Assembly: GCA_944358325.1 (NCBI GenBank)
Contig: CALVQV010000020.1
Location: 1 to 16,704 of the forward strand
Reading direction: 5' to 3'
From: an uncultured Bacilli bacterium
Lineage (GTDB): Bacteria > Bacillota_I > Bacilli_A > RF39 > UBA660
Length of the DNA: 16,704 nt
Shown here piece by piece: positions 62-13,059 of the stretch; the stretch's first letter is position 1, and each line of letters begins with the position of its first letter. The position numbers were made by a program, and so were the translations under genes. The notes beneath the pieces are model-generated. The model was given only the letters and a program-made list of their open reading frames with translations. It did no database searches and was not told where the DNA came from.

Positions 62-110
62 TAAATTTACAGGGTCACACAGTAAATTTACAGGGTCTTA
101 CAGGGTCTTA
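62..110 (+). repeat. Direct-repeat array in the target-gene promoter. The 15-mer TAAATTTACAGGGTC occurs twice (62-76, 83-97; 21-bp period) and the 10-mer CAGGGTCTTA occurs twice in tandem (91-100, 101-110). Core unit is TTACAGGGTC.
   Basis: Exact repeats read directly from the sequence. A degenerate copy, AATTTACACAG, lies at 50-60. The array overlaps the predicted -35 and spacer. Confidence 0.8.
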
Positions 111-139: not shown

Positions 140-1819
140 ATGAAAGAAAAAGGATTCACGCTTATAGAATTACTAGCAGTCATCGTTATATTAGCAGTAA
201 TAGCTTTAATCGCAACACCACTAATTATGGGCGTTATTGATGAAGCCAAAGACGGAGCTAATAAAAGAAGTGTCCAAAGTATAAGAGATGGAGCAGAAAC
301 ATTTTTATTATCTAAAAAAACTTTAGATAGTAATTATACTTTCAATATGAATGATTATCAATTCAAAGGAAATCAATTTGGTAAAGGAACATCTGATGAA
401 AGAATTAATATTGTTTTTAATGATAAAGATGAAGCCAGTGTCGCAGTATATGAAAATAATAAATGTTATTATATCTTAGCAGGATCAAATGAAGTAAAAA
501 GTGAAACAGGCTTAGATAAACAACAATGTTTAGAAAAAGCAGGAGCAACTGAAATAGTAGAAGGAAATCCTCTACTACCACAAATAGAAGCTAACTTATG
601 TACAAGTGAAAAAACAACCGAATGTTATAAAACAGAAGGTAATGAATATATCTATACAGGAGCATATGGAACAGGTGGAGTAAACTGGTTATGGTATGGA
701 GGGCATCAATGGCGTATTATCAAAGTAGATAAAACAACTGGAAGATATACTTTAATTACATCATATCCTGCAACAGCAATTCAATGGCAAAGTAGTATAG
801 CAAATGGGCCATCATTAGAAGAGTCATATGTAGGAAATTGGTTAAATAATGTGTTTGTTGCATCATTACCAACTAATGTTCAATCAAAATTAGAAAATAT
901 GACATATACAAGAAAAGTATATGATGGAAGTAGTGTTGTAGAAGAAGAAATAAGTAATGTTAAAGTTAGACTTCTAACAGAAAATGAATATACAACTTAT
1001 GGCGGAGCAGATAGTTATTTAGATATAAAGGATTGGTGGTGGCTAGCAGATATATATACTTCGTCTCGCGTCCGTAGTGTGAACGACGGCGGCAATTTGA
1101 GCAGCGACAGGCCGTCGAGCGCGAATGGTGTGCGCGCCATTGTGGAAATATCTGATATCACCATCACAGAAGGTGATGGTACTCTTAGCGCGCCATATAT
1201 TGGAAACACAAGTAAAGCTACAAACTTATCAGATATTGCAGTCGGAGAATATATAAGTATTCCTAAAAGTGATGGTGGAACTTATTTAGCCCGTGTTGTT
1301 AAACGTGATCAAAATGGTACAAAAGTTATTCTAAATGGTTTATATAATACAAGTGCTTTTGGAAGTAATGCAACATTTTCAACAAGTAGTACAATTTATA
1401 CAGGAGCTTTAATAGGATTTAAAAATAGTTTAGATAGTAATTATTTTGATGGTACTAATCGTAATTTCAATATGACAACGTATGGAGATGGAGCAAATTA
1501 TGCAGATACAACAACTATGTTTACTGGCAATATCGGACTACCTAGCGTAGGGGAGATGTTTAGTGGAAATGATATAGATGTAACAACTAGTTCTAAAACA
1601 TTTGTAGATACAAGTAAAATATTAAATCCGACATTAAGTTCTTATTATTGGTTAATGAATGCCTATAGTTCGTCTAGCGTCCGTAATGTGAACAACTACG
1701 GCTACTTGAACAACAGCAGTCCGTCGTACACGGGTGGTGTGCGCGCCACTTGGTATATCTCTGATATCACCATTACCGGAGGTAATGGTACTCCTAGCGC
1801 CCCATATACCTTAAAATAG
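140..1819 (+). CDS. DGR target (variable) protein with a type IV pilin-like N-terminus and two tandem VR-bearing ligand-binding-type modules
   Basis: 559-aa ORF. The N-terminus MKEKG/FTLIELLAVIVILAVIALIA matches the prepilin cleavage/methylation motif (Gly-1, Phe+1, Glu+5, hydrophobic helix). Two paralogous modules (about aa 165-355 and 365-559) both end in WW(L)..SS.VR.VN..G.L....PS...GVRA...ISDITIT.G.GT.SAPY. VR1 covers aa 308-334 and VR2 covers aa 511-537. Confidence 0.9.
   Translation: MKEKGFTLIELLAVIVILAVIALIATPLIMGVIDEAKDGANKRSVQSIRDGAETFLLSKKTLDSNYTFNMNDYQFKGNQFGKGTSDERINIVFNDKDEASVAVYENNKCYYILAGSNEVKSETGLDKQQCLEKAGATEIVEGNPLLPQIEANLCTSEKTTECYKTEGNEYIYTGAYGTGGVNWLWYGGHQWRIIKVDKTTGRYTLITSYPATAIQWQSSIANGPSLEESYVGNWLNNVFVASLPTNVQSKLENMTYTRKVYDGSSVVEEEISNVKVRLLTENEYTTYGGADSYLDIKDWWWLADIYTSSRVRSVNDGGNLSSDRPSSANGVRAIVEISDITITEGDGTLSAPYIGNTSKATNLSDIAVGEYISIPKSDGGTYLARVVKRDQNGTKVILNGLYNTSAFGSNATFSTSSTIYTGALIGFKNSLDSNYFDGTNRNFNMTTYGDGANYADTTTMFTGNIGLPSVGEMFSGNDIDVTTSSKTFVDTSKILNPTLSSYYWLMNAYSSSSVRNVNNYGYLNNSSPSYTGGVRATWYISDITITGGNGTPSAPYTLK
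1062..1139 (+). repeat. DGR variable repeat 1 (VR1)
   Basis: 78-nt ungapped alignment to TR 1851-1928 with 13 mismatches. Eleven are at TR adenines (10 A->G, 1 A->C). Two are at non-adenines (TR c1885 vs t1096; TR t1900 vs g1111). It forms a GC-rich island in an AT-rich gene. Confidence 0.85.
1160..1180 (+). promoter_or_regulatory. Hairpin 20 nt downstream of VR1, a candidate DGR target-recognition (IMH-associated) stem-loop
   Basis: ACCATCAC (1160-1167) pairs with GTGATGGT (1173-1180) as an 8-bp perfect stem with loop AGAAG. The position is equivalent to the hairpin after VR2. Confidence 0.6.
1671..1748 (+). repeat. DGR variable repeat 2 (VR2)
   Basis: 78-nt ungapped alignment to TR, offset exactly 180 nt. 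There are 7 mismatches, all at TR adenines (TR 1857, 1877, 1883, 1896, 1907, 1913, 1914; 4 A->G, 3 A->T). Confidence 0.92.
1769..1789 (+). promoter_or_regulatory. Hairpin 20 nt downstream of VR2, a candidate DGR target-recognition stem-loop
   Basis: ACCATTACC (1769-1777) pairs with GGTAATGGT (1781-1789) as a 9-bp stem with loop GGA. Relative to the VR1 hairpin, a C:G pair is replaced by T:A through compensatory changes on both arms. Confidence 0.6.
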
Positions 1820-1850: not shown

Positions 1851-1928
1851 CGTCTAACGTCCGTAATGTGAACAACAACGGCAACTTGAACAACAACAGT
1901 CCGTCGAACACGAATGGTGTGCGCGCCA
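1851..1928 (+). repeat. DGR template repeat (TR)
   Basis: Non-coding copy of the VRs, 31 nt after the target stop codon. It has 25 adenines in 78 nt, mostly as AAC/AAT codons in the VR reading frame (S N V R N V N N N G N L N N N S P S N T N G V R A). It ends in the GC-rich GGTGTGCGCGCC shared with both VRs. The 5' edge could extend to about 1841. Confidence 0.9.
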
Positions 1929-2101
1929 GAGCTCCTTGAAACTTAGAGTATATGAGTATTTTGTATATGTGAAGCCATGGAACAGTTCTTATTCCTGGGA
2001 ATATCCTAAAATTACATAAGTTTAATTAAGTTTTGGTAAGTGATGAAGAAGATTAATTAGTAATTCTTATGGGAAAACAGAAGAAATTTTTTCTTCTGTT
2101 T
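1851..2101 (+). ncRNA. Putative DGR RNA (TR plus a downstream spacer of about 145 nt), possibly the 3' UTR of the target mRNA
   Basis: No terminator lies between the target stop (1819) and the TR. The first intrinsic terminator is at 2075-2109. No credible ORF lies in 1929-2074. The 5' end of the RNA cannot be determined from sequence. Confidence 0.4.
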
Positions 2102-2109
2102 TTTAATTT
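2075..2109 (+). terminator. Rho-independent terminator after the TR and spacer
   Basis: AAACAGAAGAAA (2075-2086) pairs with TTTCTTCTGTTT (2090-2101). The core CAGAAGAA/TTCTTCTG stem is followed by a T-rich tract TTTTTAATTTT. Confidence 0.75.
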
Positions 2110-2156
2110 TTAGTATTTTTTTATGATAATTATGATGTTTTATGTTGACATTTTGC

Positions 2157-2183
2157 TTGACACGTGTGTGTGTGTGTTATTAT
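2157..2183 (+). promoter_or_regulatory. Putative promoter of the msl-avd-RT operon
   Basis: Perfect -35 TTGACA (2157-2162) and TG-extended -10 TGtTATTAT (2175-2183). The spacer is 15 bp and consists almost entirely of (GT)7. A second TTGACA lies at 2145-2150. Confidence 0.45.
2164..2177. repeat. (GT)7 dinucleotide microsatellite
   Basis: GTGTGTGTGTGTGT read directly from the sequence. It lies between the -35 and -10 elements upstream of msl. Confidence 0.95.
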
Positions 2184-2198
2184 TTGTTTGGTGATTAT

Positions 2199-2600
2199 AT
2201 GTTATATAAGGTATGGGAATGTTTGAAAGTAAGACATAGTTTTTTTGTTATTTTTATGAAGTATGGTAATTTTTATAAGGTTTATGGTGATGATGTTTTT
2301 ATTGTGTGGAAGATTACGGGGTATCGTGTTATTAATGGTGATCATATTGGTTTTCCTCTTAAGTCTTTAAATGTTGTTTTAAAAAGGTTAGAACTTTTAC
2401 ATGTTAGTTATATTGTTTATGATGGATGTGATGATTATTTGATGGTTGATGATGTTAATAATTGTTACATTAATGTTTTAAGTGAGTTTAAAGATTTATA
2501 TTTAAATGAAGATAGAATTAAAAAGATTGTGGAAAAGTTTGAATTTAAGGTTAGAGAGGATAAGGAAATGCTAGATTATTATGAAGAGTTATGGAAGTGA
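2199..2600 (+). CDS. MutS mismatch-binding domain I-like small protein (MSL-type DGR accessory protein)
   Basis: The ORF track gives 2142..2600. I prefer the ATG at 2199 (RBS GGTGA 2190-2194) because the upstream 19 codons overlap the promoter and GT tract. [33 protein letters not shown] aligns with the E. coli MutS N-terminus [59 protein letters not shown] aligns with [28 protein letters not shown]. The ORF overlaps avd by 20 nt. Confidence 0.7.
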   Translation: [133 protein letters not shown]

Positions 2601-2937
2601 TTTTGTTGTTATTAGGGAGTTTAAGAGTTTTATTTGTGTTGTTGAGGGTGAGTTTGATAATTGTCCTAAAAAGTGTTTATATTTAAAAGATAGTTTATTT
2701 GATATGTGTTATATGGTTTTAGAGGATATTTATGTGTGTAATATGGGGAATAATCGTTTGGTTTATATTAATCGTGTTATTGCTAGGTTAAGGATTATTG
2801 ATTTTATGCTTAAAAGATGTGTAGATATGGGGATTATTAGTTATAAACGTTTTTTATTTTTAGGAAATAAGTTAAATAGTGTAGTGAGAATGTGTTATGG
2901 GTGGTTAAAAAGTGAAAAGAGTAAACTTGAGGTATGA
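2581..2937 (+). CDS. avd: Avd-like accessory variability determinant (four-helix-bundle, 23S rRNA-IVS protein family)
   Basis: 118 aa, located directly upstream of the DGR RT and overlapping it by 26 nt. The helical pattern with a ..F..CPKK.. segment after helix 1 and a C-terminal MCYGWLKS matches the typical Avd layout (fPk.ek ... ml.gw.ks). The call rests on size, position and motifs only. Confidence 0.7.
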   Translation: MKSYGSDFVVIREFKSFICVVEGEFDNCPKKCLYLKDSLFDMCYMVLEDIYVCNMGNNRLVYINRVIARLRIIDFMLKRCVDMGIISYKRFLFLGNKLNSVVRMCYGWLKSEKSKLEV

Positions 2938-3883
2938 TGATGTTTTAAGTTATGAGAATCTTGAATTTATTTATTATATGCTTAGAAAAGGTGTTAAAAA
3001 TAAAGAAAAGTTAGATAAATTTGATTTATATTATAGTTCTAATATAAGTCATATTTATAGTTTGTTAAAAGAAAGAAGATATGAAGTTGGTTCTTATCAT
3101 CTTTTTTATATTTATGAACCAAAGAAAAGGCTTATTATGAGTCAGGGGATTGGTGATAAGATTGTTAATCATTTTGTTGCTTATTTCTATTTAATTCCTC
3201 TTCTTGACCCCTGTTTAATTAATAGTAATGTGGCAGTTAGGAAGAATATGGGAACTAGTTATGGTATTAAGTTATTAAAGAAATATTTTAGTAGTTTTAA
3301 AGGTGATTTTTATATTTTGAAGTGTGATATTAAGGGGTATTTTTATAATATTAATCATGATATTTTAAAAGTGTTGGTTGCAAGAAAGATTAAAGATAAA
3401 GATATTCTTAATTTAGTGTTTAAGATTATAGATAGTGTTGATAGTTATGGTATTGGAGGACTACCTATTGGTAATATGACTAGTCAGATTTTAGGTATAT
3501 ATTATTTAAATGGTTTAGACCACTATATTAAAGAAGTTTTAGGTATTAGGTGTTATATTAGGTATATGGATGATTTTATTCTTCTAGCTCGTGATAAATG
3601 TTATTTGAAAGAGTGTTTAAATAAGATTAAAGCGTATATTAGTGGATTAGGTTTAGAATTAAATTCTAAGACAATGATTAGTAGTAGTAAAAGTGGTGTT
3701 AATTTTTTGGGTTATCATTTTAGTTATGATAAGCATGTAGTTATTAAACCACATAATTATAATAAAAGAAAAATTAAACGAAAAATGAGGTTATATAAAG
3801 AAGGAAAGATAAGTTATAATAGGATTATTTGTTATAAAGGTTATTTTAGTTATTGTTCCCAAAGTAAGACATTTATAGTATAA
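2912..3883 (+). CDS. DGR-type reverse transcriptase
   Basis: 323 aa with a GTG start at 2912 and RBS GGTGG at 2900-2904. RT motifs present: EPKKRLIM, GDKIVNHF, YILKCDIKGYFYNI, LPIGNMTSQ (the DGR-specific IGxxxSQ signature), and RYMDDFILLA (YMDD catalytic box). No maturase, endonuclease or integrase extension. Confidence 0.92.
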   Translation: MKRVNLRYDDVLSYENLEFIYYMLRKGVKNKEKLDKFDLYYSSNISHIYSLLKERRYEVGSYHLFYIYEPKKRLIMSQGIGDKIVNHFVAYFYLIPLLDPCLINSNVAVRKNMGTSYGIKLLKKYFSSFKGDFYILKCDIKGYFYNINHDILKVLVARKIKDKDILNLVFKIIDSVDSYGIGGLPIGNMTSQILGIYYLNGLDHYIKEVLGIRCYIRYMDDFILLARDKCYLKECLNKIKAYISGLGLELNSKTMISSSKSGVNFLGYHFSYDKHVVIKPHNYNKRKIKRKMRLYKEGKISYNRIICYKGYFSYCSQSKTFIV

Positions 3884-3899
3884 TATTAGTGGTGATATT

Positions 3900-4844
3900 A
3901 TGAAAAAAAGAGTGGTTGTTTTAGGTGGTGGGACAGGAATGTCTACTTTATTACGTGGCTTAAAACAATTTCCTATTGATATAACAGCTGTTGTTAGTGT
4001 TTGTGATGATGGAAGAAGTACTGGAAGGTTAAGAGAGGAATTTAATATTCCAGCTGTTGGCGATATTCGTCAAGTTTTAGTAGCACTATCAGAAGTAGAA
4101 CCATTAGTAGAAAATCTTTTAAATTATCGTTTTAAGACGACTAGTGATTTAAATGGTCATACGGTTGGTAATTTACTTTTAACAGCTTTAAAAAATATTA
4201 ATGGAACGATGTCTGATGGGATTGAGTCTTTAGGTAAGATTCTTAATTTAAAAGGTAAAGTTTTACCATTAACAGAGGATAATGTTACTTTAGTAGGTTT
4301 AATGGAAGATGGTAGTAAAATAGAAGGTGAACACAATATTACAGAATCAGATTTAAGAGTTATGGAAGTTAGTTATAAAGATGCACCTATTGTTAATAAA
4401 GAGGTTATTAAAGAAATAAAGCGTGCGGATTTAATTATTTTAAGTATGGGTAGTTTATATACAAGTATTATGCCTAATTTAGTAGTTCCTGAAGTTGTTG
4501 AAGCGATTGAAAATAGTAAGGCTAAAATTATGTATGTTTGTAATATGATGACTCAACCAGGTGAAACTGATGAATATCGTGTTAGTGATCATATTAAAGC
4601 TTTAAATAAGCATTTAGGTAAACGTAGTATTGATATTGTTTTAGTTAATGATGGTGAAATACATCCAGAATTAATTAAAAGATATGCAACTTTAGAACAA
4701 AAAGATCCTGTTTTTTATGATATTGAAGAAGTTAATAAATTAGGAGTTAGAGTTATTGAAGATGATTTTGTTATTTTAGATAGAGAAATGATTCGTCATA
4801 ATTCAATGAAATTAGCTTTTCATATTTTTTCAAATTTAATGTAG
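3900..4844 (+). CDS. yvcK: Gluconeogenesis factor YvcK/GlmR family protein (UPF0052, CofD-like)
   Basis: N-terminal VVVLGGGTGMSTLLRGLK motif. 314 aa. Lies immediately upstream of whiA, as in other Firmicutes. Confidence 0.9.
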   Translation: MKKRVVVLGGGTGMSTLLRGLKQFPIDITAVVSVCDDGRSTGRLREEFNIPAVGDIRQVLVALSEVEPLVENLLNYRFKTTSDLNGHTVGNLLLTALKNINGTMSDGIESLGKILNLKGKVLPLTEDNVTLVGLMEDGSKIEGEHNITESDLRVMEVSYKDAPIVNKEVIKEIKRADLIILSMGSLYTSIMPNLVVPEVVEAIENSKAKIMYVCNMMTQPGETDEYRVSDHIKALNKHLGKRSIDIVLVNDGEIHPELIKRYATLEQKDPVFYDIEEVNKLGVRVIEDDFVILDREMIRHNSMKLAFHIFSNLM

Positions 4845-4857
4845 AATGAGGTGATTT

Positions 4858-5769
4858 ATGTCATTTACAGGTAGTGTTAAAGAAGAAGTTATTAATCTTA
4901 ATTCAAGTGATTTAGAGTCTCGTGCTTGTTTAAGTGCAATAATTCATAATGTTGGTAGTATTACAAATGATAGTATTAAAGTAGTTACGGAAAATAGTTT
5001 ACTTGCTAAATATATTGATACACTACTTAGAGATATATATGATATAACGCCTAAAATTATTGTTCGTAAAGGCTATAATTTTAATAAAAATTATTTATAT
5101 ATTATTGAATTTATTAATAAATTAGATTTAGTTATTAAAGATTTATCTTTAGATGACAATATTCCTAAGGAATATTTATATGATGATAGTGAATTATTAC
5201 GTTCTTATTTAAGAGGTATTTTCTTGGCTGTTGGAAGTATTAATGATCCAAAGAAGTCAAGATATCATTTAGAGTTCTTAGTAGATAGTAAGAAGTATGC
5301 TTATTTTATTATGGATAAGCTTAATAGTTTTAATTTAAATAGTAAAGTTTTAAAAAGAGAAACTAAGTATATGATTTATGTTAAAGAGTCAGAAAAGATT
5401 AGTGATTTTTTAAGACTTATAGGGGCTTCTAAAGCCGTTATGTACTATGAAGATATACGTATATATCGTGATCATGTTAATATGACTAATCGTCTTAATA
5501 ATTGTGAACAAGCGAATGTTGAAAAAACAATTAATGCCTCTAATGAACAAATAAAAGAAATAGAATTATTAAAAGAAAAAGATGTATATGACTTGTTAGA
5601 TGATAAAGTTAAGGAAGTAGCAGTTTACAGACTTAAATATCCTGATGTTTCTTTAACAGAGTTAAGTGAAATAATTTCGGTAGAAACAGGTAATAAAATC
5701 ACTAAATCAGGTCTTCATCATCGTATGCGTAAAATAAAAGAAATGGCTAATAAAGTAAGAAATATGTAG
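4858..5769 (+). CDS. whiA: DNA-binding protein WhiA
   Basis: 303 aa. N-terminus MSFTGSVKEE..., LAGLIDADG-like middle region (YLRGIFLAVGSINDP) and C-terminal HTH (TKSGLHHRMRKI). Conserved yvcK-whiA synteny. Confidence 0.9.
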   Translation: MSFTGSVKEEVINLNSSDLESRACLSAIIHNVGSITNDSIKVVTENSLLAKYIDTLLRDIYDITPKIIVRKGYNFNKNYLYIIEFINKLDLVIKDLSLDDNIPKEYLYDDSELLRSYLRGIFLAVGSINDPKKSRYHLEFLVDSKKYAYFIMDKLNSFNLNSKVLKRETKYMIYVKESEKISDFLRLIGASKAVMYYEDIRIYRDHVNMTNRLNNCEQANVEKTINASNEQIKEIELLKEKDVYDLLDDKVKEVAVYRLKYPDVSLTELSEIISVETGNKITKSGLHHRMRKIKEMANKVRNM

Positions 5770-5782
5770 AAAGGGTGATAGC

Positions 5783-6952
5783 ATGAAATGTATTTTAATG
5801 AATAAAAATATTGAAGTATTAGTTGCTGAGTACGATCAAGAAATTAAAGTTTTTAGTAAGATATATGAAATTAAAAATATTAAATATGCACCATTCCAAT
5901 TAGAAAATGCTTATTATAAAAAAGAAACATTTCGTGCTTCATTATCTGAATGGTTTGTTGGGAGAGGTATTCCATCATGGCGTGATGATTTAGATATTTT
6001 ATTATCTAAATTAAATATATCTACACCTAAAGAATTATTAGATAAAGCTTTTGGTTTGTCATTATCTGATCAATATTGGTTAAAGCCATATAATAGTAAT
6101 ATAAAATATGATGATATAAATTTTTTTGATCATGATTTTCAAGGCTCAGAATTTACTAATATAACATTTTCTTCTAGTAATACAAGTTCTAACAAAGTTA
6201 GTTTAATTTCCCCTAATAATACAACAGATGGGCGATTAAAAAAAACGTGGATTATTGAAAATAAGACAAGATATTTATTAAAGGGTGGTTATAAAAATGA
6301 AGTTATGCAACCATTTAATGAAGTATTAGCAACTATGATATGTAAACGTATGGGGTTTAAACATGTTCCTTATGAGCTTGCTATTGTAAATGATAAAGTA
6401 GTATCTAAATGTCCATGTTTTATTACAAAAGATACAGAATTAATAAGTGCTTATCAAATTCTTCATAATAATTGTCATAAAAATAATGCTTATATTGAAT
6501 ATATTAATATTTTAGAAGAACATGGTATTAAAAATGCTAGAGAAAATTTAGAAGATATGTTTATATTAGATTATCTAATGTTAAATGAAGATAGACATCT
6601 AGGTAATTTTGGTATAATTAGAAATGTTGAAAATTTAAAGTGGCTTGAAACAGCTCCCATTTTTGATACTGGTCAATCATTAAATATTTTAGATTATAAT
6701 GATGAAGAATTACTTATTAATGGTGCAGGAAGATTTTTCTATGAAAGTAATAATTTTGATTATTTACTTACTAAAATAAAAGATATCAAAAGATATGATT
6801 TAAATAAGTTAGATGGGTTATGTGATGAATTTGATAGTTTATTACATAAATATAGTAGTATTACACATATGACTGATAGAAGAATTGATAAAATATGTAC
6901 TTTATTAATGAGTCGTATTAACAAATTAAAAAGGTATATCAAAAGCGTTTAG
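5783..6952 (+). CDS. HipA-like serine/threonine kinase domain protein (orphan, no adjacent HipB/HTH partner)
   Basis: 389 aa. The HipA_C-type catalytic region LMLNEDRHLGNFGII (compare N.DDH.kN) is followed by APIFDTGQSL (compare APlYD). N-terminal SLSDQYWLKP motif. Confidence 0.6.
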   Translation: MKCILMNKNIEVLVAEYDQEIKVFSKIYEIKNIKYAPFQLENAYYKKETFRASLSEWFVGRGIPSWRDDLDILLSKLNISTPKELLDKAFGLSLSDQYWLKPYNSNIKYDDINFFDHDFQGSEFTNITFSSSNTSSNKVSLISPNNTTDGRLKKTWIIENKTRYLLKGGYKNEVMQPFNEVLATMICKRMGFKHVPYELAIVNDKVVSKCPCFITKDTELISAYQILHNNCHKNNAYIEYINILEEHGIKNARENLEDMFILDYLMLNEDRHLGNFGIIRNVENLKWLETAPIFDTGQSLNILDYNDEELLINGAGRFFYESNNFDYLLTKIKDIKRYDLNKLDGLCDEFDSLLHKYSSITHMTDRRIDKICTLLMSRINKLKRYIKSV

Positions 6953-6966
6953 CGCTTTTTCTTTTC
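6941..6966 (+). terminator. Rho-independent terminator after the HipA-like gene
   Basis: AAAAGCG (6941-6947) pairs with CGCTTTT (6953-6959), loop TTTAG (contains the stop codon), followed by TCTTTTC. Confidence 0.6.
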
Positions 6967-6968
6967 TA

Positions 6969-6997
6969 AAGACAAAATTAATAATTTATAGTATAAT
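6969..6997 (+). promoter_or_regulatory. Putative promoter of the DHH-rplI-dnaB cluster
   Basis: -10 TATAAT at 6992-6997. Weak -35 AAGACA at 6969-6974 with a 17-bp spacer. Confidence 0.35.
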
Positions 6998-7017
6998 ATT
7001 ACAAGAAGAGGTGAACC

Positions 7018-7983
7018 ATGGTTGATGTATTTAATAAAATAACCGAAGCAGTTAAAAGTCACGATAAAGTTATTATTATGGCTCATCGTCATATTGATTA
7101 TGATGCTTTAGGTAGTGCTTTAGGATTATATGAAATAGTTAAATCTTTTAATAAAGAAGTAGCTATCTATGTAGATAGTGATTTAAAGGAAATGGTTAAT
7201 ACTAAGTTGTTTGATTTGATTGCTAATTTAGATATTAAATTTATATATAAAAATACTTATCATAAGTTTATAAGTGATAATACTCTTTTAATTATTGTAG
7301 ATACGCATAAAGAAGAAATGCTTGCTAATCACGAATTGTTGAATTGTGTTAAAAATAAAGTTATTATTGACCATCATATTAAAAGCAATGAATATATAAA
7401 AGATGCTTTATTTAGTTATATTGATTCTAATTTATCTAGTATTAATGAGTTTGTAGCTTTTTATTTAAAATATCTTAATAAAAGTGTTGATAGTGTTATA
7501 GCAACTATTATGCTTACAGGAATTGAGTTAGATACTAATGATTTCCATAGCAAAACAACACCTAATACTTTTTTAGCAGCTTCTTATTTAGCTACACTAG
7601 GTGCGAATACTTATGATACTTTAGAACTTATGAAAGAAGATAAAGATGCAACAATTAGAAGAATGAATTATTTAACTAGATCTTATACCATTGATGATGA
7701 AATTATGATATGTCCTTTGGATAGTGAAAAATTACTTCCTAAGGATCTAGCCATCATCTCTGATATGCAAATGAGCTTTACAAATATTGAGTTAGGCTTT
7801 GTTATTGGTAATTTAATTAATGGCAAGGTAGGTATTAGTGCTCGTTCTAGTGGTAAATATGATGTTTCTAAAATAATGCAAGCTTTAGGTGGTGGTGGAC
7901 ATGCTACCGAAGCTGCTGTTCAAATCGAAGGCAAAAGTATAAAAGAGGTTGAAAAAGAGTTAAAAAGTTTATTGAAGAGGTGA
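7018..7983 (+). CDS. DHH/DHHA1 family phosphoesterase (NrnA/GdpP-catalytic-domain-like)
   Basis: 321 aa. Motifs: MAHRHIDYDALGSA, IIVDTH, IIDHH (DHH) and GGGGH (DHHA1). It sits upstream of rplI-dnaB in the position gdpP occupies in Bacillus, but lacks TM, PAS and GGDEF regions. Confidence 0.8.
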   Translation: MVDVFNKITEAVKSHDKVIIMAHRHIDYDALGSALGLYEIVKSFNKEVAIYVDSDLKEMVNTKLFDLIANLDIKFIYKNTYHKFISDNTLLIIVDTHKEEMLANHELLNCVKNKVIIDHHIKSNEYIKDALFSYIDSNLSSINEFVAFYLKYLNKSVDSVIATIMLTGIELDTNDFHSKTTPNTFLAASYLATLGANTYDTLELMKEDKDATIRRMNYLTRSYTIDDEIMICPLDSEKLLPKDLAIISDMQMSFTNIELGFVIGNLINGKVGISARSSGKYDVSKIMQALGGGGHATEAAVQIEGKSIKEVEKELKSLLKR

Positions 7984-7987
7984 ATAT

Positions 7988-8425
7988 ATGAAAGTTATAT
8001 TACTTACGGATGTTAAAAAATTAGGTAAAAAAGATGCGATTATTGATGTTAAAGATGGTTATGGTAATTTTCTTATTAAAGAAAATAAAGCTGTTATTGC
8101 AACATTAGGTAGCATTAATCGTTTAAATAAAGAAAATAGTCTTAAAGCTTTAGAAGAAAATCTTTTGATTAAAGAAATGCAATCTTTAAAAACAAAGATG
8201 GAAAAAGTTAAATATGAAATTAAAGTAAAAACCGGTACAGGAGACCGTGTCTTTGGTAGTGTTTCTACTAAACAAATTGCTGGTATGCTAAAAGAAAAAG
8301 GATTTTCTATTGATAAAAAACAAATTCATTTAGATCATGAATTAACATCTTTAGGAACACATAATGTGGATATTGTTTTACATAAACAAGTAACTGCAAC
8401 AATTAAGATTAATTTAGTTAAGTAG
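7988..8425 (+). CDS. rplI: 50S ribosomal protein L9
   Basis: 145 aa. MKVILLTDVKKLGKKDAIIDVKDGYGNFLI is a typical L9 N-domain. Synteny with dnaB. Confidence 0.95.
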   Translation: MKVILLTDVKKLGKKDAIIDVKDGYGNFLIKENKAVIATLGSINRLNKENSLKALEENLLIKEMQSLKTKMEKVKYEIKVKTGTGDRVFGSVSTKQIAGMLKEKGFSIDKKQIHLDHELTSLGTHNVDIVLHKQVTATIKINLVK

Positions 8426-8433
8426 GTGAAGTT

Positions 8434-9777
8434 ATGGCAGAAAAAATCATGCCCAACAATCTAGAAGCAGAACAATCCGTTTTAGGTAGTATGTTCTTAA
8501 GTAAAAGTGCTTGTCAGAGAGCTCTTGAGTCTTTAACTAAAGAGTCTTTTTATAGTGAAGCAAATGGTAATATTTTTGCTTGTTTAGGAGAATTAATTGA
8601 AGCAGGTAAACCAATTGACATCACAACAGTTACAGCAGCTTTAGATAAGCAAAAATTACTTAAACAAGTAGGTGATGTTGAATATTTAACAGAAATAGTC
8701 AATATTGTTCCAACAGCAGCTAATATTGAAGAATATATTAAAATAGTTTTAGAAAAAGCAACCCTTCGTCGTTTAATTGAAGAAGCAACTAAAATTATTA
8801 ATGATGGTTACAATTCAACTGATAGTTTAAGTGATATTTTAGATAATGCTGAAAGAAAAATTTTAAATGTCGTTAAAACACGTAAAGGTACAGAATTTAA
8901 AAGTATTACCGAAGTTTTATTTAAAACGCAAGCTGATATTGAAAAATTATCACAAAATAAAGGTGAAGTTACTGGAATTGCAACAGGTTTTCGTGATATT
9001 GATAAACTTACAAGTGGTTTCCATGCAAATGAGCTTATTATTGTAGCAGCTCGTCCTGCCATGGGAAAAACAGCTATTGCTTTAAATATGGCTATTAATA
9101 TGGCCAATAGTTCTAAAAAAGCCATTGCTTTATTTAATATGGAAATGGGTGCTGAACAATTAGCGATGCGTATGATTGCTAGTGTTGGTCAAATTAATCA
9201 AGGTAAAATAAGAACAGGTCGACTAGAACATAATGATTGGCGTCGTGTTAATGAAGCAATTAGTAGACTTGCTGATACTAAAATATTTATTGACGATACT
9301 CCAGGTATGACAATAGGTGAAATAAGAGCTAAATGTCGTCGCCTAGCAAGTGAACAAAATGGCTTAGGAGCAATTATAATCGACTACTTACAGCTTATTA
9401 GTGGTGGTGCAAAATATGCCGGAAATCGTCAACAAGAAGTATCAGAAATATCTCGTTCTTTAAAAACTTTAGCTATGGAATTAGAAGTTCCTGTTATTGC
9501 TTTAGCCCAATTATCACGTAGTGTTGAAGGTCGTGATGATAAACGTCCACTTTTAAGTGACTTACGTGAATCTGGATCTATTGAACAAGATGCTGATATA
9601 GTAGCATTCTTATATCGTGATGATTATTATACAAAAGAAATAAGTATTGATGAATATACAAGTAAGAGTGAGTTTATAATCGCAAAACACCGTAGTGGTC
9701 CAACAGCCACAATTGATTTAATATTCAAACGTGATACAGGTACGTTTGTTAATTTCTTAAATGAAGAAGAAAAATAG
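8434..9777 (+). CDS. dnaB: Replicative DNA helicase DnaB (DnaC in Bacillus nomenclature)
   Basis: 447 aa. N-terminus PNNLEAEQSVLGSM, Walker A AARPAMGKTA, IIIDYLQL, and SRSLKTLAMELEVPVIALAQLSR motifs. Confidence 0.95.
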   Translation: MAEKIMPNNLEAEQSVLGSMFLSKSACQRALESLTKESFYSEANGNIFACLGELIEAGKPIDITTVTAALDKQKLLKQVGDVEYLTEIVNIVPTAANIEEYIKIVLEKATLRRLIEEATKIINDGYNSTDSLSDILDNAERKILNVVKTRKGTEFKSITEVLFKTQADIEKLSQNKGEVTGIATGFRDIDKLTSGFHANELIIVAARPAMGKTAIALNMAINMANSSKKAIALFNMEMGAEQLAMRMIASVGQINQGKIRTGRLEHNDWRRVNEAISRLADTKIFIDDTPGMTIGEIRAKCRRLASEQNGLGAIIIDYLQLISGGAKYAGNRQQEVSEISRSLKTLAMELEVPVIALAQLSRSVEGRDDKRPLLSDLRESGSIEQDADIVAFLYRDDYYTKEISIDEYTSKSEFIIAKHRSGPTATIDLIFKRDTGTFVNFLNEEEK

Positions 9778-11256
9778 GTGATAAATTTGAAAAAAATTTT
9801 CTATATATTAATTTTATTTGTAATCGCTGGTGCTTTATTTTCTTTAGGATTTAATAGCAAAAAGCAATATGAACCTAATGTTTATTATCAAGTATATTTA
9901 GAAGATGAAGTTTTAGGTGTTATCAAATCTAAAAAAGAATTAGATGATTATATTGATAAAAAAGGTGATAACATAAAAAAAGAATTAGGTGTATCTAATG
10001 TATATGCGCCTAATGGCATAAAAGTAGAAAAAATTGCTACTTACAATAAAGAAATTAGTAGTGTTGAAGACATCTATAAACAAATTGAAAAAGAAGCTTC
10101 TTTTACTATAAAAGGATATCAATTTACTATTCGTAAAACTAATGAAGAAACAGGCAAAGAAAGTGTTTCATACATATATACAACAACAGAAGATGTATTT
10201 ACTGAAGCTATAACCAGTTTTGTTGAAACCTATATTGGTGAAGAAACATACACAGCTTTTATAAATGGCGATGTTGTAGAGATTACAACAACGGGAAGTA
10301 AAACAGAAAATATATATATTAATGAAGATATAACTATCAAAGAAAGATATATACCTACAACTGAAAAAATATATAATAATAGTAAAGAACTATCACAATT
10401 TTTACTATTTGGAAAAAATATTGAAATGAAAGAGTATACAGTAAAAGCTGGTGAAACCTTAGAACAAATAGCTTATAATAATGAAATCAGTGTTAATGAA
10501 TTAATATTATCTAATCCAGATTTTTCTGGTGAAAATCAGTTGGTATTTGCTGGACAAGTTATTACGATAGGTGTACCAGATCCACAATTAAGTGCTGTTA
10601 TTGAAGAATATGTTGTGGAAGATCAAGAAGTAGCTTATACAACGGTTGAAGTATATGATGAGACAATGAATATGGGACAAATGGAAGTACGTCAAAATGG
10701 CGAAAATGGTACTGTCCGTGTTGCTCAACGAGTTAAAACAGTTAATGGGGTTGTTACTTATGTTGAACCAGTAAGTAAAACTGAATTAAAGCCGACAGTT
10801 AATAAAATAGTTGCTTTAGGTTCAAAATATATACCAACAGTTGGATCTACCAAAGATTGGCGTTGGCCTACTGATAGTGGATGGCGTATTACAAGTTCAT
10901 ATGGATGGCGTATTGATCCATATACTGGTTCTCGTTCTTTCCACAATGCTATAGATATTGCTGGTACAGGATATGGTTCAAATATTTATGCTGTTACTAA
11001 TGGTGTAGTATATCAAAGTGCTTATACATCTGTTAACGGTTATTATATAATTATTAATCATAATAACGGTTATTATACTTATTATGGCCATATGATTAGA
11101 AAATCACCACTTACAGTTGGATCTACAGTTGCTAAAGGAGACGTTATAGGTTATGTAGGATCTACAGGAGCTGCAACAGGACCACACGTTCACTTTGCTG
11201 TATGGGTTGGTATACCATGGCGTGGTTACCATATAAATCCACTTAGTATGTATTAA
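9778..11256 (+). CDS. Membrane-anchored LysM-G5-M23 family metallopeptidase
   Basis: The N-terminal TM is IFYILILFVIAGALF. LysM is YTVKAGETLEQIAYNNEISVNELILSNP. A G5-like segment is VEVYDETMNMGQMEVRQNGENGTVRV. The M23 motifs are HNAIDIAG and GPHVHFAV. The start is uncertain: GTG at 9778, or TTG at 9787 with RBS AGGTGA at 9776-9781. Confidence 0.8.
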   Translation: MINLKKIFYILILFVIAGALFSLGFNSKKQYEPNVYYQVYLEDEVLGVIKSKKELDDYIDKKGDNIKKELGVSNVYAPNGIKVEKIATYNKEISSVEDIYKQIEKEASFTIKGYQFTIRKTNEETGKESVSYIYTTTEDVFTEAITSFVETYIGEETYTAFINGDVVEITTTGSKTENIYINEDITIKERYIPTTEKIYNNSKELSQFLLFGKNIEMKEYTVKAGETLEQIAYNNEISVNELILSNPDFSGENQLVFAGQVITIGVPDPQLSAVIEEYVVEDQEVAYTTVEVYDETMNMGQMEVRQNGENGTVRVAQRVKTVNGVVTYVEPVSKTELKPTVNKIVALGSKYIPTVGSTKDWRWPTDSGWRITSSYGWRIDPYTGSRSFHNAIDIAGTGYGSNIYAVTNGVVYQSAYTSVNGYYIIINHNNGYYTYYGHMIRKSPLTVGSTVAKGDVIGYVGSTGAATGPHVHFAVWVGIPWRGYHINPLSMY

Positions 11257-11257
11257 T

Positions 11258-12022
11258 ATGGAAATATCAGTTCTAGCTACAGGAAGTAAAGGAAATTGTA
11301 CCTATATCAAAACTAATAATCATAAAATATTAGTTGATTTAGGTACTACTTCTTTATATGTTGAAAAGCAACTAAAAGATTTAAACGTTGAACCAAAAGA
11401 GATAGATAGTATATTTATAACTCATACCCATGTAGATCATATTAATGGTTTAAAAGTATTTATAAAAAAATATAACCCAACAATCTTTTTAACTAATAAA
11501 ATGTATCAAGAATTAGTAAAAATGTTACCAATTACTAATTATTATTTATTAGAAGAAGATACTGTTATAGATGATTTAATTATTCATGTATTTAAAACTT
11601 CACATGATGTTGAAGATTCTAATGGCTATATATTTGAAAGTGATAATAAAAGTATTGTATATATTACAGATACAGGCTATATTAACGTTAAATATCATAA
11701 AATGTTAGTTAATAAAGACTTTTATGTGATGGAAAGTAATCATGATGTAAGAATGCTTATGGATGGTAAATATCCATATCATTTAAAACAACGTATTGTA
11801 GGTGATAGAGGTCACTTATCCAATAAAGACTCTGCTAACTATTTAGCTAATTTTATTGGTGATAAAACTAAAGGAATTGTCTTAATCCATTTAAGTGAAG
11901 ATAATAATACTCCTGATATTGCTTATAATACTTTAAAACAAACATTAGAAAGAAGAAATAAACAAGTAGATAAAATATTAATTTCTAATCAAAGAGAACA
12001 TACGGAGTTGATAACTTTATGA
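11258..12022 (+). CDS. MBL-fold metallo-hydrolase (YycJ/WalJ-like)
   Basis: 254 aa. HTHVDH metal-binding motif, and GNCTYIKT at the N-terminus. Overlaps rlmH by 4 nt (ATGA). Confidence 0.8.
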   Translation: MEISVLATGSKGNCTYIKTNNHKILVDLGTTSLYVEKQLKDLNVEPKEIDSIFITHTHVDHINGLKVFIKKYNPTIFLTNKMYQELVKMLPITNYYLLEEDTVIDDLIIHVFKTSHDVEDSNGYIFESDNKSIVYITDTGYINVKYHKMLVNKDFYVMESNHDVRMLMDGKYPYHLKQRIVGDRGHLSNKDSANYLANFIGDKTKGIVLIHLSEDNNTPDIAYNTLKQTLERRNKQVDKILISNQREHTELITL

Positions 12023-12474
12023 TAAAAATTATTGCAGTTGGAAATATTAAAGAATCTTTCTTTAAAGAAGCCATCTTAGAATACCAAAAACGTATATCCA
12101 AATATACTAAGTTAGAAATTATTGAAGTTAAAGATTATGATTTAGATAGTCCTAATTTAAATATGGAAAAAGAAAAAGAAGCCATATTAAAGCATATTAC
12201 ACCTAAGGATTTTATAGTTACTCTAGTCATTGAAGGAAAAGAAATGACTAGCCCATCTTTTGCTGAAGCTTTAGATAAATGGTTTATGCAAAAAGGTAAT
12301 ATAACATTTATTATTGGTGGATCAAATGGTTTAAGTAAAGAACTAAAAGATATGAGTAACTTTCAATTATCTTTTTCACCTATGACTTTTCCACATCAAT
12401 TATTTCGTATAATTTTACTTGAACAAATATATCGTGCTTATAAAATAAAAAATAATGAATCTTATCATAAATAA
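12019..12474 (+). CDS. rlmH: 23S rRNA (pseudouridine1915-N3)-methyltransferase RlmH
   Basis: 151 aa SPOUT-type. MIKIIAVGNIKESFFKEAILEYQKRI, and a C-terminal IGGSNGLS...SFSPMTFPHQLFRIILLEQIYRAY. Confidence 0.9.
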   Translation: MIKIIAVGNIKESFFKEAILEYQKRISKYTKLEIIEVKDYDLDSPNLNMEKEKEAILKHITPKDFIVTLVIEGKEMTSPSFAEALDKWFMQKGNITFIIGGSNGLSKELKDMSNFQLSFSPMTFPHQLFRIILLEQIYRAYKIKNNESYHK

Positions 12475-12487
12475 GTATAAAAAAATA

Positions 12488-12522
12488 AAAAACCGCTCAT
12501 TAAAAAATAGGAGGCGGTTTTT
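12488..12522 (+). terminator. Possible weak terminator or hairpin after rlmH
   Basis: AAAAACCGC (12488-12496) pairs with GCGGTTTTT (12514-12522), but the loop is 17 nt and contains the spoIIR RBS AGGAGG. This is poor geometry for a terminator. Confidence 0.3.
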
Positions 12523-12524
12523 AA

Positions 12525-13049
12525 ATGAAAAAAACCATAATATTAACTATTATTATCATCATCTTTATTATAATTACTAACTCGGTAAAACAAGATTTAG
12601 TAAAAATACCTAAAGAAGCTATTAGAATTCGTGTTCTAGCCAATAGTAATGATAACTATGATCAAGAAATGAAAAAACAAGTAAAAGAATTGGTAGCTAA
12701 TCAATTATATCCCAAATTAAATAATGTCAAGAATATTAATGAAGCAAGGAAGGTTATTAACAATAATATTGATAATATAGAAAAAAATATTAATACTTTC
12801 TTTACACAAAAAAAATATAATCAAAATTATGAAGTGATTTATGGATTAAATTACTTTCCGGAAAAAGAATATAAAGGTGTTTATTATGATGAGGGTTATT
12901 ATGAATCATTACTTGTAACAATCGGTGATGGTTCTGGCGATAATTGGTGGTGTGTTTTATTCCCACCACTATGTTTGATGGAGGCCGAAGAAAGTGAAGA
13001 AGTAGAATATAAATTTTTCGTTCAAGAATTAATTGATAAATACTTTTAG
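12525..13049 (+). CDS. spoIIR: Stage II sporulation protein R
   Basis: 174 aa with a signal/TM N-terminus. IPKEAIRIRVLANSN and GDGSGDNWWCVLFPPLC are diagnostic of the SpoIIR family. Confidence 0.88.
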   Translation: MKKTIILTIIIIIFIIITNSVKQDLVKIPKEAIRIRVLANSNDNYDQEMKKQVKELVANQLYPKLNNVKNINEARKVINNNIDNIEKNINTFFTQKKYNQNYEVIYGLNYFPEKEYKGVYYDEGYYESLLVTIGDGSGDNWWCVLFPPLCLMEAEESEEVEYKFFVQELIDKYF

Positions 13050-13059
13050 TAATATCTAA

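What the first reader, a model, noticed from the sequence alone, without database searches (positions are those of the whole stretch)
2100..3890. The enzyme half of the DGR is extremely C-depleted and T-enriched on the sense strand, unlike its own target gene
By hand count, 2641-2940 contains only 8 C in 300 nt (about 3%), with G near 22% and T above 40%. A typical housekeeping stretch (for example 8461-8520) has about 13% C and 30% T with similar G and A. The shift starts just after the terminator near 2100 and ends at the RT stop near 3883. The target gene, TR and spacer have ordinary host-like composition. The net difference looks like C->T on the coding (non-template) strand. Consistent with this, the proteins are rich in Cys, Tyr, Phe and Leu (TGT/TAT/TTT/TTA), and the Avd-like protein has 7 Cys in 118 aa where Avd proteins are normally Arg-rich (CGT->TGT). 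Possible explanations are foreign origin of the enzyme module (a chimeric DGR), strand-specific cytosine deamination of a heavily transcribed or single-stranded intermediate, or passage through an RNA/cDNA copy.
Basis: seen in the sequence. Interest (0 to 1): 0.65.

Follow-up and report, generated by a model that had tools for sequence, protein, structure and literature searches.

The report
Lopsided base composition of DGR enzyme genes
The three enzyme genes of this bacterial diversity-generating retroelement really are almost free of C and rich in G and T on their coding strand. The main change is loss of A (A->G), plus C->T, and it fades over about 5 kb into the ordinary genes downstream. 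It looks like a local one-strand mutation pressure, not imported DNA or an arginine-to-cysteine drift.

Summary
In detail: 2641-2940 has 8 C in 300 nt. msl, avd and RT have 3.0, 2.3 and 5.5 % C and GC skew of 0.55-0.84, against 8-14 % C and 0.07-0.42 in host genes. A likelihood segmentation places the anomaly at 2020-3932.

At synonymous sites G replaces A (G-ending NNR codons 0.36-0.44, against 0.08 in host genes), as well as T replacing C.

Low C is shared by related Avd/MSL genes. What is special to this lineage is loss of A. None of the 7 Avd cysteines aligns with arginine.

The skew starts at the module's own promoter, just after a terminator. It drops at the RT stop but leaves a tail through yvcK, whiA and DHH.

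A sister species with the same cassette at the same site shows the same module composition and tail. Genes just upstream of a related cassette (probably that sister species), and orthologues in two relatives without the cassette, are unskewed. An unrelated cassette (L039) repeats the pattern.

Best reading (about 45 %) is a polar, strand-specific mutation pressure on the sense strand, caused by extra single-strandedness. Rivals are a composition inherited from a strongly skewed donor, self-mutagenesis by the DGR reverse transcriptase, and selection.

The parts
140..1819 (+). DGR target gene: pilin-like N-terminus (N_methyl motif), DUF6273 domain, two variable regions. Its synonymous bias is opposite to that of the enzyme module.
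   Evidence: Pfam hits; composition.
1062..1139 (+). VR1. It differs from TR at 11 TR-A positions (10 A>G, 1 A>C) and at 2 non-A positions.
1671..1748 (+). VR2. All 7 differences from TR are at TR adenines (4 to G, 3 to T).
1851..1928 (+). Template repeat (TR), A-rich at the variable positions.
1929..2071 (+). Spacer downstream of TR, probably the 3' part of the DGR RNA. Ordinary composition; conserved with the L162 cassette.
2072..2104 (+). Intrinsic terminator-like hairpin followed by a T run. It marks the 5' edge of the skewed segment.
2157..2183 (+). Putative promoter of the enzyme operon: TTGACA (2157-2162), C plus (GT)7 (2164-2177), TATTAT (2178-2183). The (GT)n length varies among strains.
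   Evidence: Sequence; indels; tract lengths; conservation in L162.
2199..2600 (+). msl, the MutS-domain-I-like accessory gene. The start is corrected from 2142 to 2199 (133 aa). C 3.0 %, GC skew 0.77.
   Evidence: Pfam MutS_I; start codon; composition.
2581..2937 (+). avd accessory gene. C 2.3 %, GC skew 0.84, no C at third codon positions.
2912..3883 (+). DGR reverse transcriptase, with LPIGNMTSQ and YMDD motifs. C 5.5 %, GC skew 0.55.
2020..3932 (+). Maximum-likelihood compositional segment: the core of the anomaly.
3900..8425 (+). Tail of the skew in native genes yvcK, whiA, a hipA-like gene, a DHH-family gene and rplI. C-ending NNY codons are 0.014-0.071. G+T at 4-fold sites is 0.61-0.72, fading to 0.50-0.62 beyond dnaB.

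Best explanation
A local, polar, strand-specific substitution pressure acts on the + strand. This strand is the sense (non-template) strand of the operon and also the lagging-strand template.

On that strand A->G, and probably C->T, are favoured over their complements T->C and G->A. The pressure starts at the promoter of the msl-avd-RT operon, is strongest over the 1.8-kb module, and fades over about 5 kb into yvcK, whiA and the DHH-family gene.

These two changes are what adenine and cytosine deamination produce in single-stranded DNA. They also produce the composition seen genome-wide on the leading strand in strongly skewed relatives.

I infer that this strand spends unusually long single-stranded at and downstream of the DGR enzyme operon. 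The most likely cause is persistent transcription bubbles or R-loops: the transcript is G-rich and nearly C-free, which would stabilise RNA:DNA hybrids and could reinforce the skew. Alternatively, replication forks may be disturbed at the cassette.

Shown: the composition, its boundaries and polarity, its persistence in a sister species, its recurrence in one unrelated cassette, and a weak excess of recent A->G changes. Inferred: single-strandedness as the cause, and R-loops or transcription as its source.
For: (1) The shift is at synonymous sites. G/(A+G) at NNR codons is 0.36-0.44 in the module, 0.14 in the next four genes and 0.08 in the ten genes beyond (module vs host p = 2e-18). C/(C+T) at NNY codons is 0.028, 0.051 and 0.109. 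G+T at 4-fold sites falls with distance in the downstream host genes (rho = -0.80, p = 6e-4).

(2) The 5' edge coincides with a terminator and promoter.

(3) Polarity. In a related cassette-bearing genome (probably the sister species), the genes just upstream of the cassette are unskewed. Values there are lgt NNY_C 0.231 and trxB-like 0.246 with GC skew -0.03. yvcK just downstream has NNY_C 0.013-0.014 and GC skew 0.42-0.44.

(4) The sister species L252/L253 has host-gene dS of 0.8-1.3. It carries the cassette at the same site, with the same module composition and the same downstream tail.

(5) Two relatives without a DGR at this site (L249, L251) have unskewed yvcK, whiA and DHH (NNY p = 2e-9, NNR p = 1e-3).

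(6) The independent cassette L039 (38 % RT identity) has msl/avd/RT third positions of A 22, C 0-2, G 16-21, T 56-62. Its upstream genes are unskewed and its downstream genes intermediate.

(7) Within the species, changes were polarised with the sister species. A>G per A site is 24/1000 in avd+RT against 8.7 in yvcK+whiA (p = 0.045). Over three alleles, A>G:T>C is 13:6 in the module against 15:22 in host genes (p = 0.09).

(8) The module's synonymous composition equals that of native + strand housekeeping genes in strongly skewed relatives. L041 host genes give NNR_G 0.35, NNY_C 0.031 and 4-fold A24 C2 G6 T67, with the mirror image on the opposite strand in L038. A natural ssDNA-type process in this group therefore produces exactly this signature.

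(9) Literature. A and C deamination in ssDNA gives A->G and C->T (PMC3269012). [quoted passage not shown]
Against: The synonymous rate in the module is not clearly raised. Within the species pS is 0.080 against 0.058 (not significant), and strain contigs show equal divergence in module and flanks.

Between the sister species, dS is lowest at the module (0.40-0.52) and rises with distance. An added mutational input predicts the opposite. The pattern fits recombination at the cassette or a fixation bias better.

The A->G component drops sharply at the RT stop in the window (0.36 to 0.11), although no terminator separates RT from yvcK.

Most low-GC DGR modules track their host (r = 0.81), and on average the module exceeds its host only slightly. 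The effect is therefore not a general property of DGR operons.

There are no transcription or R-loop data; no usable RNA runs were found. The counts of polarised substitutions are small.
Confidence: 0.45

Rival explanations
1. Compositional legacy. The cassette, possibly with yvcK, evolved for a long time in a genome with very strong leading-strand G+T skew. It then entered the ancestor of the window species and its sister by transfer or recombination, and the enzyme genes still carry the donor's signature.
For: Strongly skewed genomes exist among hosts of related DGRs, and their native + strand genes match the module's synonymous composition.

Modules normally track their host (r = 0.81), so an outlier suggests a recent arrival.

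The cassette lineage sits at three different chromosomal sites and is absent at this site in L249 and L251.

dS between the sister species is lowest at the module and yvcK. L165 looks like a recombinant between the two species.

The A->G component has a sharp 3' edge at the RT stop in the window.
Against: No donor was found. The nearest RTs outside the two species are 58 % or less identical, and the nearest viral RT is 45 %.

The skew extends into whiA and DHH, whose dS (0.75-0.87) is near genome level, in both species.

Only the downstream side is affected.

Recent polarised changes show no decay: A>G 13 against G>A 7 in the module. The power of this test is low.

Module GC content equals that of the host. 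L166 and L039 would each need their own recent transfer.
Confidence: 0.22
2. Self-inflicted adenine mutagenesis. RT-Avd occasionally reverse-transcribes its own operon transcript. The A-mutagenised cDNA is written back by recombination, so adenines in the sense strand are progressively replaced.
For: The loss is A-specific. 25 % of conserved A sites changed against 5 % of T sites, and A>C is in excess (10 observed against about 3 expected from the per-site rate of seven control lineages).

The A->G component is confined to the transcription unit, with sharp edges.

In this DGR's own VRs, TR-A changes are 14 to G, 3 to T and 1 to C. The A-involving differences between module alleles are similar: 104 A/G, 33 A/T and 9 A/C.

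bRT-Avd mutagenises adenines on non-DGR templates in vitro (PMC6182149).

A reverse-transcription model has been proposed for A-biased asymmetry on non-transcribed strands (PMC2927911).
Against: It does not explain the loss of C or the tail in downstream genes.

There are no A>C changes among 29 changes at conserved third-position A sites. BPP-1 RT gives A->T 22 %, A->G 18 % and A->C 12 % (PMC7826257).

The synonymous rate in the module is not raised.

Most DGR modules, including MSL-containing ones, show nothing of the kind.

No priming or homing signal for such cDNA is known.
Confidence: 0.12
3. Selection or relaxed selection on the coding sequence. One form is selection for an A-poor, C-poor (G/U-rich, weakly structured) mRNA or for rare codons that keep the enzymes scarce. 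The other is relaxed codon selection that exposes the host's underlying leading-strand mutation bias.
For: The edges of the A->G component coincide with gene boundaries.

dS is reduced where the bias is strongest, as in codon-biased genes such as fba.

The observed A/G flux at synonymous sites, about 1.7 times that of the flank, is nearer to a fixation-bias expectation than to a pure rate increase (with my own calculation).

C-ending NNY codons are commonest in the probably well expressed target gene and rarest in the module.
Against: The bias also affects first and second codon positions and changes the amino-acid make-up.

It spreads into housekeeping genes downstream in a distance-dependent way.

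The accessory hipA-like gene (NNR_G 0.09) and the intergenic DNA are not G/T-rich.

Most DGR modules lack the bias.
Confidence: 0.1

Closest known systems
Replication-associated strand compositional asymmetry (GC/AT skew from deamination of the single-stranded lagging-strand template)
   Same: It involves the same two substitution types (A->G and C->T on one strand). The resulting synonymous-site composition matches that of + strand genes in strongly skewed related genomes (PMC3269012).
   Different: Here the asymmetry covers 1.8 kb plus a 5-kb tail in a genome that is otherwise weakly skewed. It starts at an operon boundary, not at a replication origin or terminus.
Transcription-associated mutational asymmetry (excess of A->G over T->C, and G+T excess, on the non-transcribed strand)
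   Same: The direction of the bias is the same. It starts at the promoter, is strongest at the 5' end of the unit and decays downstream (PMC2927911).
   Different: To my knowledge the magnitude is far beyond anything reported for bacterial genes. The transcription level of the operon is unknown. Well expressed neighbours (rplI, fba) do not show it.
DGR mutagenic retrohoming (adenine-specific mutagenesis, TR to VR)
   Same: The loss is adenine-specific, and the responsible type of enzyme is encoded at the spot. The A-substitution spectrum resembles that of the element's own VRs.
   Different: The canonical process copies only TR into VR. It does not touch C, and in BPP-1 it gives A->T >= A->G > A->C (PMC7826257). 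Here C is also lost, and A->C is absent at synonymous sites.
Horizontally acquired DGR cassettes with atypical composition (Wu et al. 2018, PMC5758913)
   Same: The cassette is absent from this site in relatives, and its lineage occurs at several chromosomal sites.
   Different: The published criterion is GC content. Here GC content equals the host's and the anomaly lies in the skew. It is one-sided and reaches native genes.
R-loop-linked targeted deamination at immunoglobulin loci (AID, somatic hypermutation)
   Same: Both involve a G-rich non-template strand, a strand-biased mutation footprint anchored at a promoter, and a diversification system.
   Different: No deaminase is encoded in the window. 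The footprint lies on the enzyme genes, not on the diversified target. This is an analogy only.

Membership tests
Diversity-generating retroelement (DGR) | Reverse transcriptase of the DGR clade | tested here: met
   The RVT_1 domain scores E = 2.6e-16. There are 2240 homologues. The LPIGNMTSQ and YMDD motifs are present and fall in conserved columns of the alignment.
Diversity-generating retroelement (DGR) | TR/VR repeat pair whose differences fall at TR adenines | tested here: met
   VR2 has 7 of 7 differences at TR-A. VR1 has 11 of 13.
Diversity-generating retroelement (DGR) | Avd accessory protein next to the RT | tested here: met
   The Pfam bAvd hit is weak (E = 1.2e-3, below the cut-off). 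However, the protein matches the ORF immediately upstream of the RT in about 60 other DGR loci (phmmer, down to E = 1e-44).
DGR architecture D (MSL-containing; Wu et al. 2018) | Small MutS-like accessory gene together with avd | tested here: met
   The MutS_I hit scores 21.1 bits against a cut-off of 20.6. Homologues sit at the same position in 25 other loci. The family is described in PMC5758913.
Transcription-associated strand asymmetry | A->G exceeds T->C on the non-template strand | tested here: met
   The per-site rates are 24 against 7.5 per 1000 in the module (p = 0.04). The ratio is reversed in the flanks. Counts are small.
Transcription-associated strand asymmetry | The footprint is delimited by the transcription unit and scales with transcription | tested here: inconclusive
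   The 5' edge is at a terminator and promoter. The 3' side shows a sharp drop for A->G and a gradual tail for C->T. No expression data are available.
Horizontally acquired island | Composition decaying towards that of the host (amelioration) | tested here: inconclusive
   In the module, A>G is 13 against G>A 7. There is no sign of decay, but the power is low.
Horizontally acquired island | Anomaly confined to the inserted DNA, with sharp edges on both sides | tested here: not met
   The target, TR and spacer of the same cassette are unskewed. Native yvcK, whiA and DHH are skewed in two species.
DGR-type adenine mutagenesis footprint | Only adenines are affected, with all three substitutions | tested here: not met
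   The A-specific loss is seen. However, C is also depleted relative to the A-rich relative L162. No A>C is found at third positions (0 of 29).
   0 of 7 Cys align with Arg.

The most novel reading that the evidence does not exclude
The DGR machinery leaves a mutational footprint on its own operon. In one version, RT-Avd copies the operon transcript and writes adenine-mutagenised cDNA back. In the other, DGR-bound RNA:DNA hybrids keep the sense strand single-stranded. Either way, an active DGR slowly rewrites the composition of its own enzyme genes and of the genes just downstream.
Probability: 0.15. Interest if true: 0.85.

Novelty: new variant of a known kind. Interest (0 to 1): 0.5.

Why it matters
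DGRs are regarded as precisely targeted mutators: TR to VR, adenines only. A heritable, strand-specific footprint on the enzyme operon and its downstream neighbours would mean one of two things. Either these elements have collateral mutagenic effects in cis, or their operons are unusual sites of single-stranded DNA or R-loops.

Both would matter for how DGRs are regulated and for their use as directed-evolution tools.

Even on the more ordinary reading, the locus is a very strong local strand asymmetry in a bacterial chromosome. It has natural controls: a sister species, relatives without the cassette, and upstream versus downstream genes. That makes it a tractable case for separating the effects of transcription, replication and transfer on base composition.

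It is also a practical caution. Extreme skew, not GC content, can mark a DGR module, and it distorts the amino-acid composition of Avd, MSL and RT enough to weaken profile matches.

Tried and rejected
(1) 'The module evolves six times faster than yvcK' (87-92 % against 98 % identity with L165). Rejected. L165 is a recombinant or a chimeric assembly: its avd/RT are 97.5-99.4 % identical to the sister species L252, while its yvcK is 98 % window-like and 90 % L252-like. True within-species comparisons show equal divergence.

(2) Strain-level read and contig pile-ups from eight chicken-gut runs. They show no excess variation in the module. The outputs were too fragmentary to give a substitution spectrum.

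(3) A general 5'-peaked GC-skew profile across 60 low-GC DGR loci. Only a weak rise was seen, 0.23-0.35 against 0.1-0.2. The paired tests are marginal.

(4) A phage donor. The best viral RT is 45 % identical.

(5) Deamination of a cDNA. This predicts G->A on the sense strand, the wrong direction.

(6) Double-strand-break resection at VR/TR. This predicts skew upstream, or the opposite sign downstream. Rejected by reasoning.

(7) Local mismatch-repair blockade by MSL. This predicts a much higher local rate, which is not seen.

(8) Polarising synonymous changes with L162 and L166 as outgroups. This is biased towards inferring ancestral A, because those outgroups are A-rich and saturated. It was replaced by polarisation with the sister species.

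(9) An amelioration test. My first expectation of 6:1 in favour of G->A was not borne out by the host's own polarised rates. The test is inconclusive.

(10) RNA-seq runs for transcript boundaries. None were usable.

(11) Sequence upstream of the target in the window species. Contigs break at the TR/VR region. Only a related cassette-bearing MAG gave upstream genes.
Full report
WHAT IS THERE

The window is a stretch of a low-GC gut Bacilli-type chromosome with every gene on the + strand. It comes from chicken-gut metagenomes.

It carries a complete DGR:
- a pilin-like target gene (140-1819) with two variable regions, VR1 (1062-1139) and VR2 (1671-1748);
- the template repeat (1851-1928) and a spacer;
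- a terminator (2072-2104);
- then msl, avd and RT.

All 7 differences between VR2 and TR are at TR adenines. VR1 has 11 such differences plus 2 others.

Downstream lie yvcK, whiA, a hipA-like gene, a DHH-family gene, rplI, dnaB and further housekeeping genes.

In relatives the same neighbourhood begins with mnmE-mnmG-rsmG-parB. From general knowledge of Firmicutes gene order, I infer that the locus lies about 10-15 kb from the replication origin, on the leading strand.

CHECK OF THE OBSERVATION

The hand count is exact: 8 C in 2641-2940.

With the corrected msl start, msl, avd and RT have 3.0, 2.3 and 5.5 % C. Their GC skew is 0.55-0.84. The other genes have 8-14 % C and GC skew of 0.07-0.42.

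No 300-nt window outside the module has fewer than 17 C. Windows inside average 12.8. A likelihood segmentation gives 2020-3932.

At third codon positions A falls from about 40 to 20-25 % and G rises from about 6 to 14-23 %. In addition T rises and C falls to 0-2 %.

At synonymous sites:

| Gene set | G/(A+G) at NNR codons | C/(C+T) at NNY codons |
|---|---|---|
| module (msl, avd, RT) | 0.39 | 0.028 |
| next four genes | 0.14 | 0.051 |
| ten genes beyond | 0.08 | 0.109 |
| target gene | 0.06 | 0.161 |

Module against host is significant for NNR (p = 2e-18) and for NNY (p = 0.002).

WHAT IS INHERITED AND WHAT IS SPECIAL

Among 247 DGR RT genes fetched from genomes, metagenomes and viral contigs, G+T content averages 48.4 % (sd 3.0). 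The window lineage has 58.5-60 %.

Low C, however, is common in the Avd and MSL genes of low-GC hosts: 2-5 % in about ten lineages. The closest cassette with the same architecture is L162 (57 % RT identity). It has C 3.8-4.6 % in msl/avd but is A-rich (44 %) and has host-like third positions.

What distinguishes the window lineage is loss of adenine. At first and second codon positions conserved in 56 other RTs, it changed 25 % of A sites (30 A>G, 10 A>C, 9 A>T). It changed only 5 % of T sites, and of the few conserved G and C sites only 1 of 13 C sites. Control lineages changed 7-16 % of A sites and 4-12 % of T sites.

The cysteine argument fails. None of the 7 Avd cysteines aligns with arginine.

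The 'chimeric DGR' idea also fails. The TR, spacer, (GT)n tract and msl start are collinear with those of L162.

SPATIAL PATTERN AND NATURAL CONTROLS

The skew begins at the terminator and promoter and peaks in msl and avd.

In the window, the A->G component drops abruptly at the RT stop. The C->T component and the G+T content at 4-fold sites decline gradually through yvcK, whiA, the hipA-like gene, DHH and rplI (rho = -0.80, p = 6e-4).

Four comparisons make this more than an oddity of one contig.

(i) A sister species (L252/L253) has host genes only 73-85 % identical (dS 0.8-1.3). It carries the cassette at the same site. Its module composition is the same (NNR_G 0.38-0.55). Its tail is even clearer (yvcK 0.28, whiA 0.33, DHH 0.26, then 0.07-0.19). 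Its gene-by-gene GC-skew series is almost identical.

(ii) Two more distant relatives lack a DGR at this site (L249, L251). Their yvcK, whiA and DHH are unskewed (NNY p = 2e-9).

(iii) In a related cassette-bearing MAG, the genes immediately upstream of the target are unskewed or skewed the other way. lgt has NNY_C 0.231; trxB-like has NNY_C 0.246 and GC skew -0.03. The effect is therefore polar. Whether this MAG is the same species as L252 is not established.

(iv) An unrelated cassette (L039, 38 % RT identity, from a human-gut MAG) shows the same third-position composition in msl/avd/RT. Its upstream genes are unskewed and its downstream genes intermediate.

Across 41 low-GC loci, module third-position G+T otherwise tracks that of co-oriented host genes (r = 0.81). 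The window (+15 points) and L039 (+23 points) are the outliers. The general tendency is weak.

RATES AND DIRECTION

An early result seemed to show the module diverging six times faster than yvcK. It was an artefact. L165 combines a sister-species module with a window-type yvcK, so it is either a recombinant or a chimeric assembly.

True within-species pairs show equal divergence in module and flanks. pS is 0.080 against 0.058, which is not significant. The strain contigs agree.

dN/dS is 0.15-0.38 against the L165 allele, whose avd and RT are of the sister-species type. The RT motifs are intact, so the genes are functional.

When polarised with the sister species, recent changes in avd+RT show A>G at 24 per 1000 A sites. 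The figure for yvcK+whiA is 8.7 (p = 0.045). T>C is 7.5 per 1000 T sites against 12. Over three alleles, A>G:T>C is 13:6 in the module and 15:22 in host genes (p = 0.09).

The asymmetry therefore appears to be still operating. The counts are small.

Between the two species, dS is lowest at the module (0.40-0.52) and at yvcK (0.54), and rises with distance to 1.0-1.4. A simple added mutation input does not predict this. The pattern points to recombination at the cassette, to a fixation-type bias, or to both.

INTERPRETATION

The two favoured changes, A->G and C->T on one strand, are the products of adenine and cytosine deamination in single-stranded DNA (PMC3269012). [quoted passage not shown]

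Related gut Bacilli with strong genome-wide strand asymmetry show exactly the module's synonymous composition in native + strand genes, and its mirror image on the other strand. Such a process therefore exists in this group.

My best explanation (0.45) is a local excess of single-strandedness of the + strand, starting at the enzyme operon's promoter and fading downstream. R-loops are an attractive cause. The transcript is G-rich and almost C-free, and a (GT)n tract sits in the promoter. This part is inference.

The main rival (0.22) is that the composition is a legacy of a strongly skewed donor genome. In its favour are the mobility of the cassette, the low dS around it and the sharp 3' edge of the A->G component. 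Against it are the polarity, the tail in native genes with near-genome-level dS in two species, the absence of any donor and the lack of visible decay.

Self-mutagenesis by RT-Avd (0.12) would explain the A-specificity, the unit-limited A->G component and the similarity to the element's own VR spectrum. It is mechanistically conceivable, because bRT-Avd mutagenises adenines on non-DGR templates (PMC6182149). It does not explain the C loss, the tail, the missing A->C at synonymous sites (compare PMC7826257) or the unremarkable rate.

Selection or relaxed selection (0.10) is disfavoured by the spread into housekeeping genes and by the unskewed hipA-like gene and intergenic DNA.

LITERATURE

Two full-text searches on DGRs found no description of compositional skew in DGR enzyme genes. 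The large survey by Wu et al. discusses only GC content as a sign of transfer, and defines the MSL accessory family (PMC5758913).

VERDICT

The feature is a new, unusually strong and polar variant of known strand-asymmetry phenomena, attached to a DGR enzyme operon. Its cause is unresolved between an in-situ process and a compositional legacy. Interest is moderate (0.5). It would be high if the DGR machinery itself proved responsible.

Noticed in passing
window 2145-2201: A (GT)7 tract (2164-2177) lies between a TTGACA (2157-2162) and a TATTAT (2178-2183), just upstream of the real msl start (ATG 2199). Its length differs among near-identical strains. L252 has (GT)6 and L253 has (GT)10 although they are 99.7 % identical; other strains carry +GT or +GTGTGT; L162 has (GT)10. 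This would change the -35/-10 spacing (15, 17, 21 nt). It looks like a phase-variable promoter for the DGR enzymes. The ORF call starting at 2142 is therefore too long.
   Followed up: partly
window 140-1819; also the target genes in L039, L162, L038 and L091: Target genes of this cassette family carry the opposite synonymous bias to the enzyme genes, whatever the host. They are A- and C-rich: G+T at 4-fold sites is 0.33-0.46, and C-ending NNY codons are 0.12-0.19. This resembles the composition of opposite-strand genes in strongly skewed genomes. Unexplained.
   Followed up: partly
window 1062-1139 and 1671-1748: One target gene holds two VRs fed by one TR. VR2 differs from TR only at adenines. 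VR1 also has two non-adenine differences (C>T, T>G), so it may be older or less often rewritten.
   Followed up: partly
window 5783-6952: A HipA-like kinase gene sits between whiA and the DHH-family gene. It is absent from that position in the sister species (L252/L253) and in L249 and L251, so it is a lineage-specific insertion. No partner antitoxin-like ORF was looked for.
   Followed up: no
L252/L253 versus window 2199-14521: Synonymous divergence between the two sister species rises steadily with distance from the cassette. The values are 0.40 (msl), 0.54 (yvcK), about 0.8 (whiA to dnaB) and 1.0-1.4 (M23 to mntP). This suggests that the cassette region was exchanged between the species after they split.
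   Followed up: partly
L165 (whole locus): This contig joins a sister-species-type avd/RT (97.5-99.4 % identical to L252) to a window-type yvcK (98.2 %). It is either a natural inter-species recombinant at the RT/yvcK junction or a chimeric low-coverage assembly (2.6x).
   Followed up: partly
L038, L091, L024, L041 (host genes): Some related gut Bacilli genomes have very strong strand asymmetry at synonymous sites. In + strand genes G-ending NNR codons are 0.25-0.48. In opposite-strand genes of L038 the figure is 0.00-0.10 (0.06 pooled), with 4-fold A51 C15 G2 T32.
   Followed up: partly
window 62-103: Two tandem 21-nt repeats (TAAATTTACAGGGTC[AC/TT]ACAG) lie just upstream of the target gene. 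Some strains show 59-66-nt deletions with replacement sequence here, so the region is polymorphic and is probably the target gene's promoter.
   Followed up: no
L041 2332-5114: A different DGR lineage (42 % RT identity) also sits immediately upstream of whiA. That whiA has the most extreme host-gene skew seen (NNR_G 0.48, 4-fold G+T 0.81), and the skew fades in the genes beyond. This may be a third example of the downstream tail.
   Followed up: no
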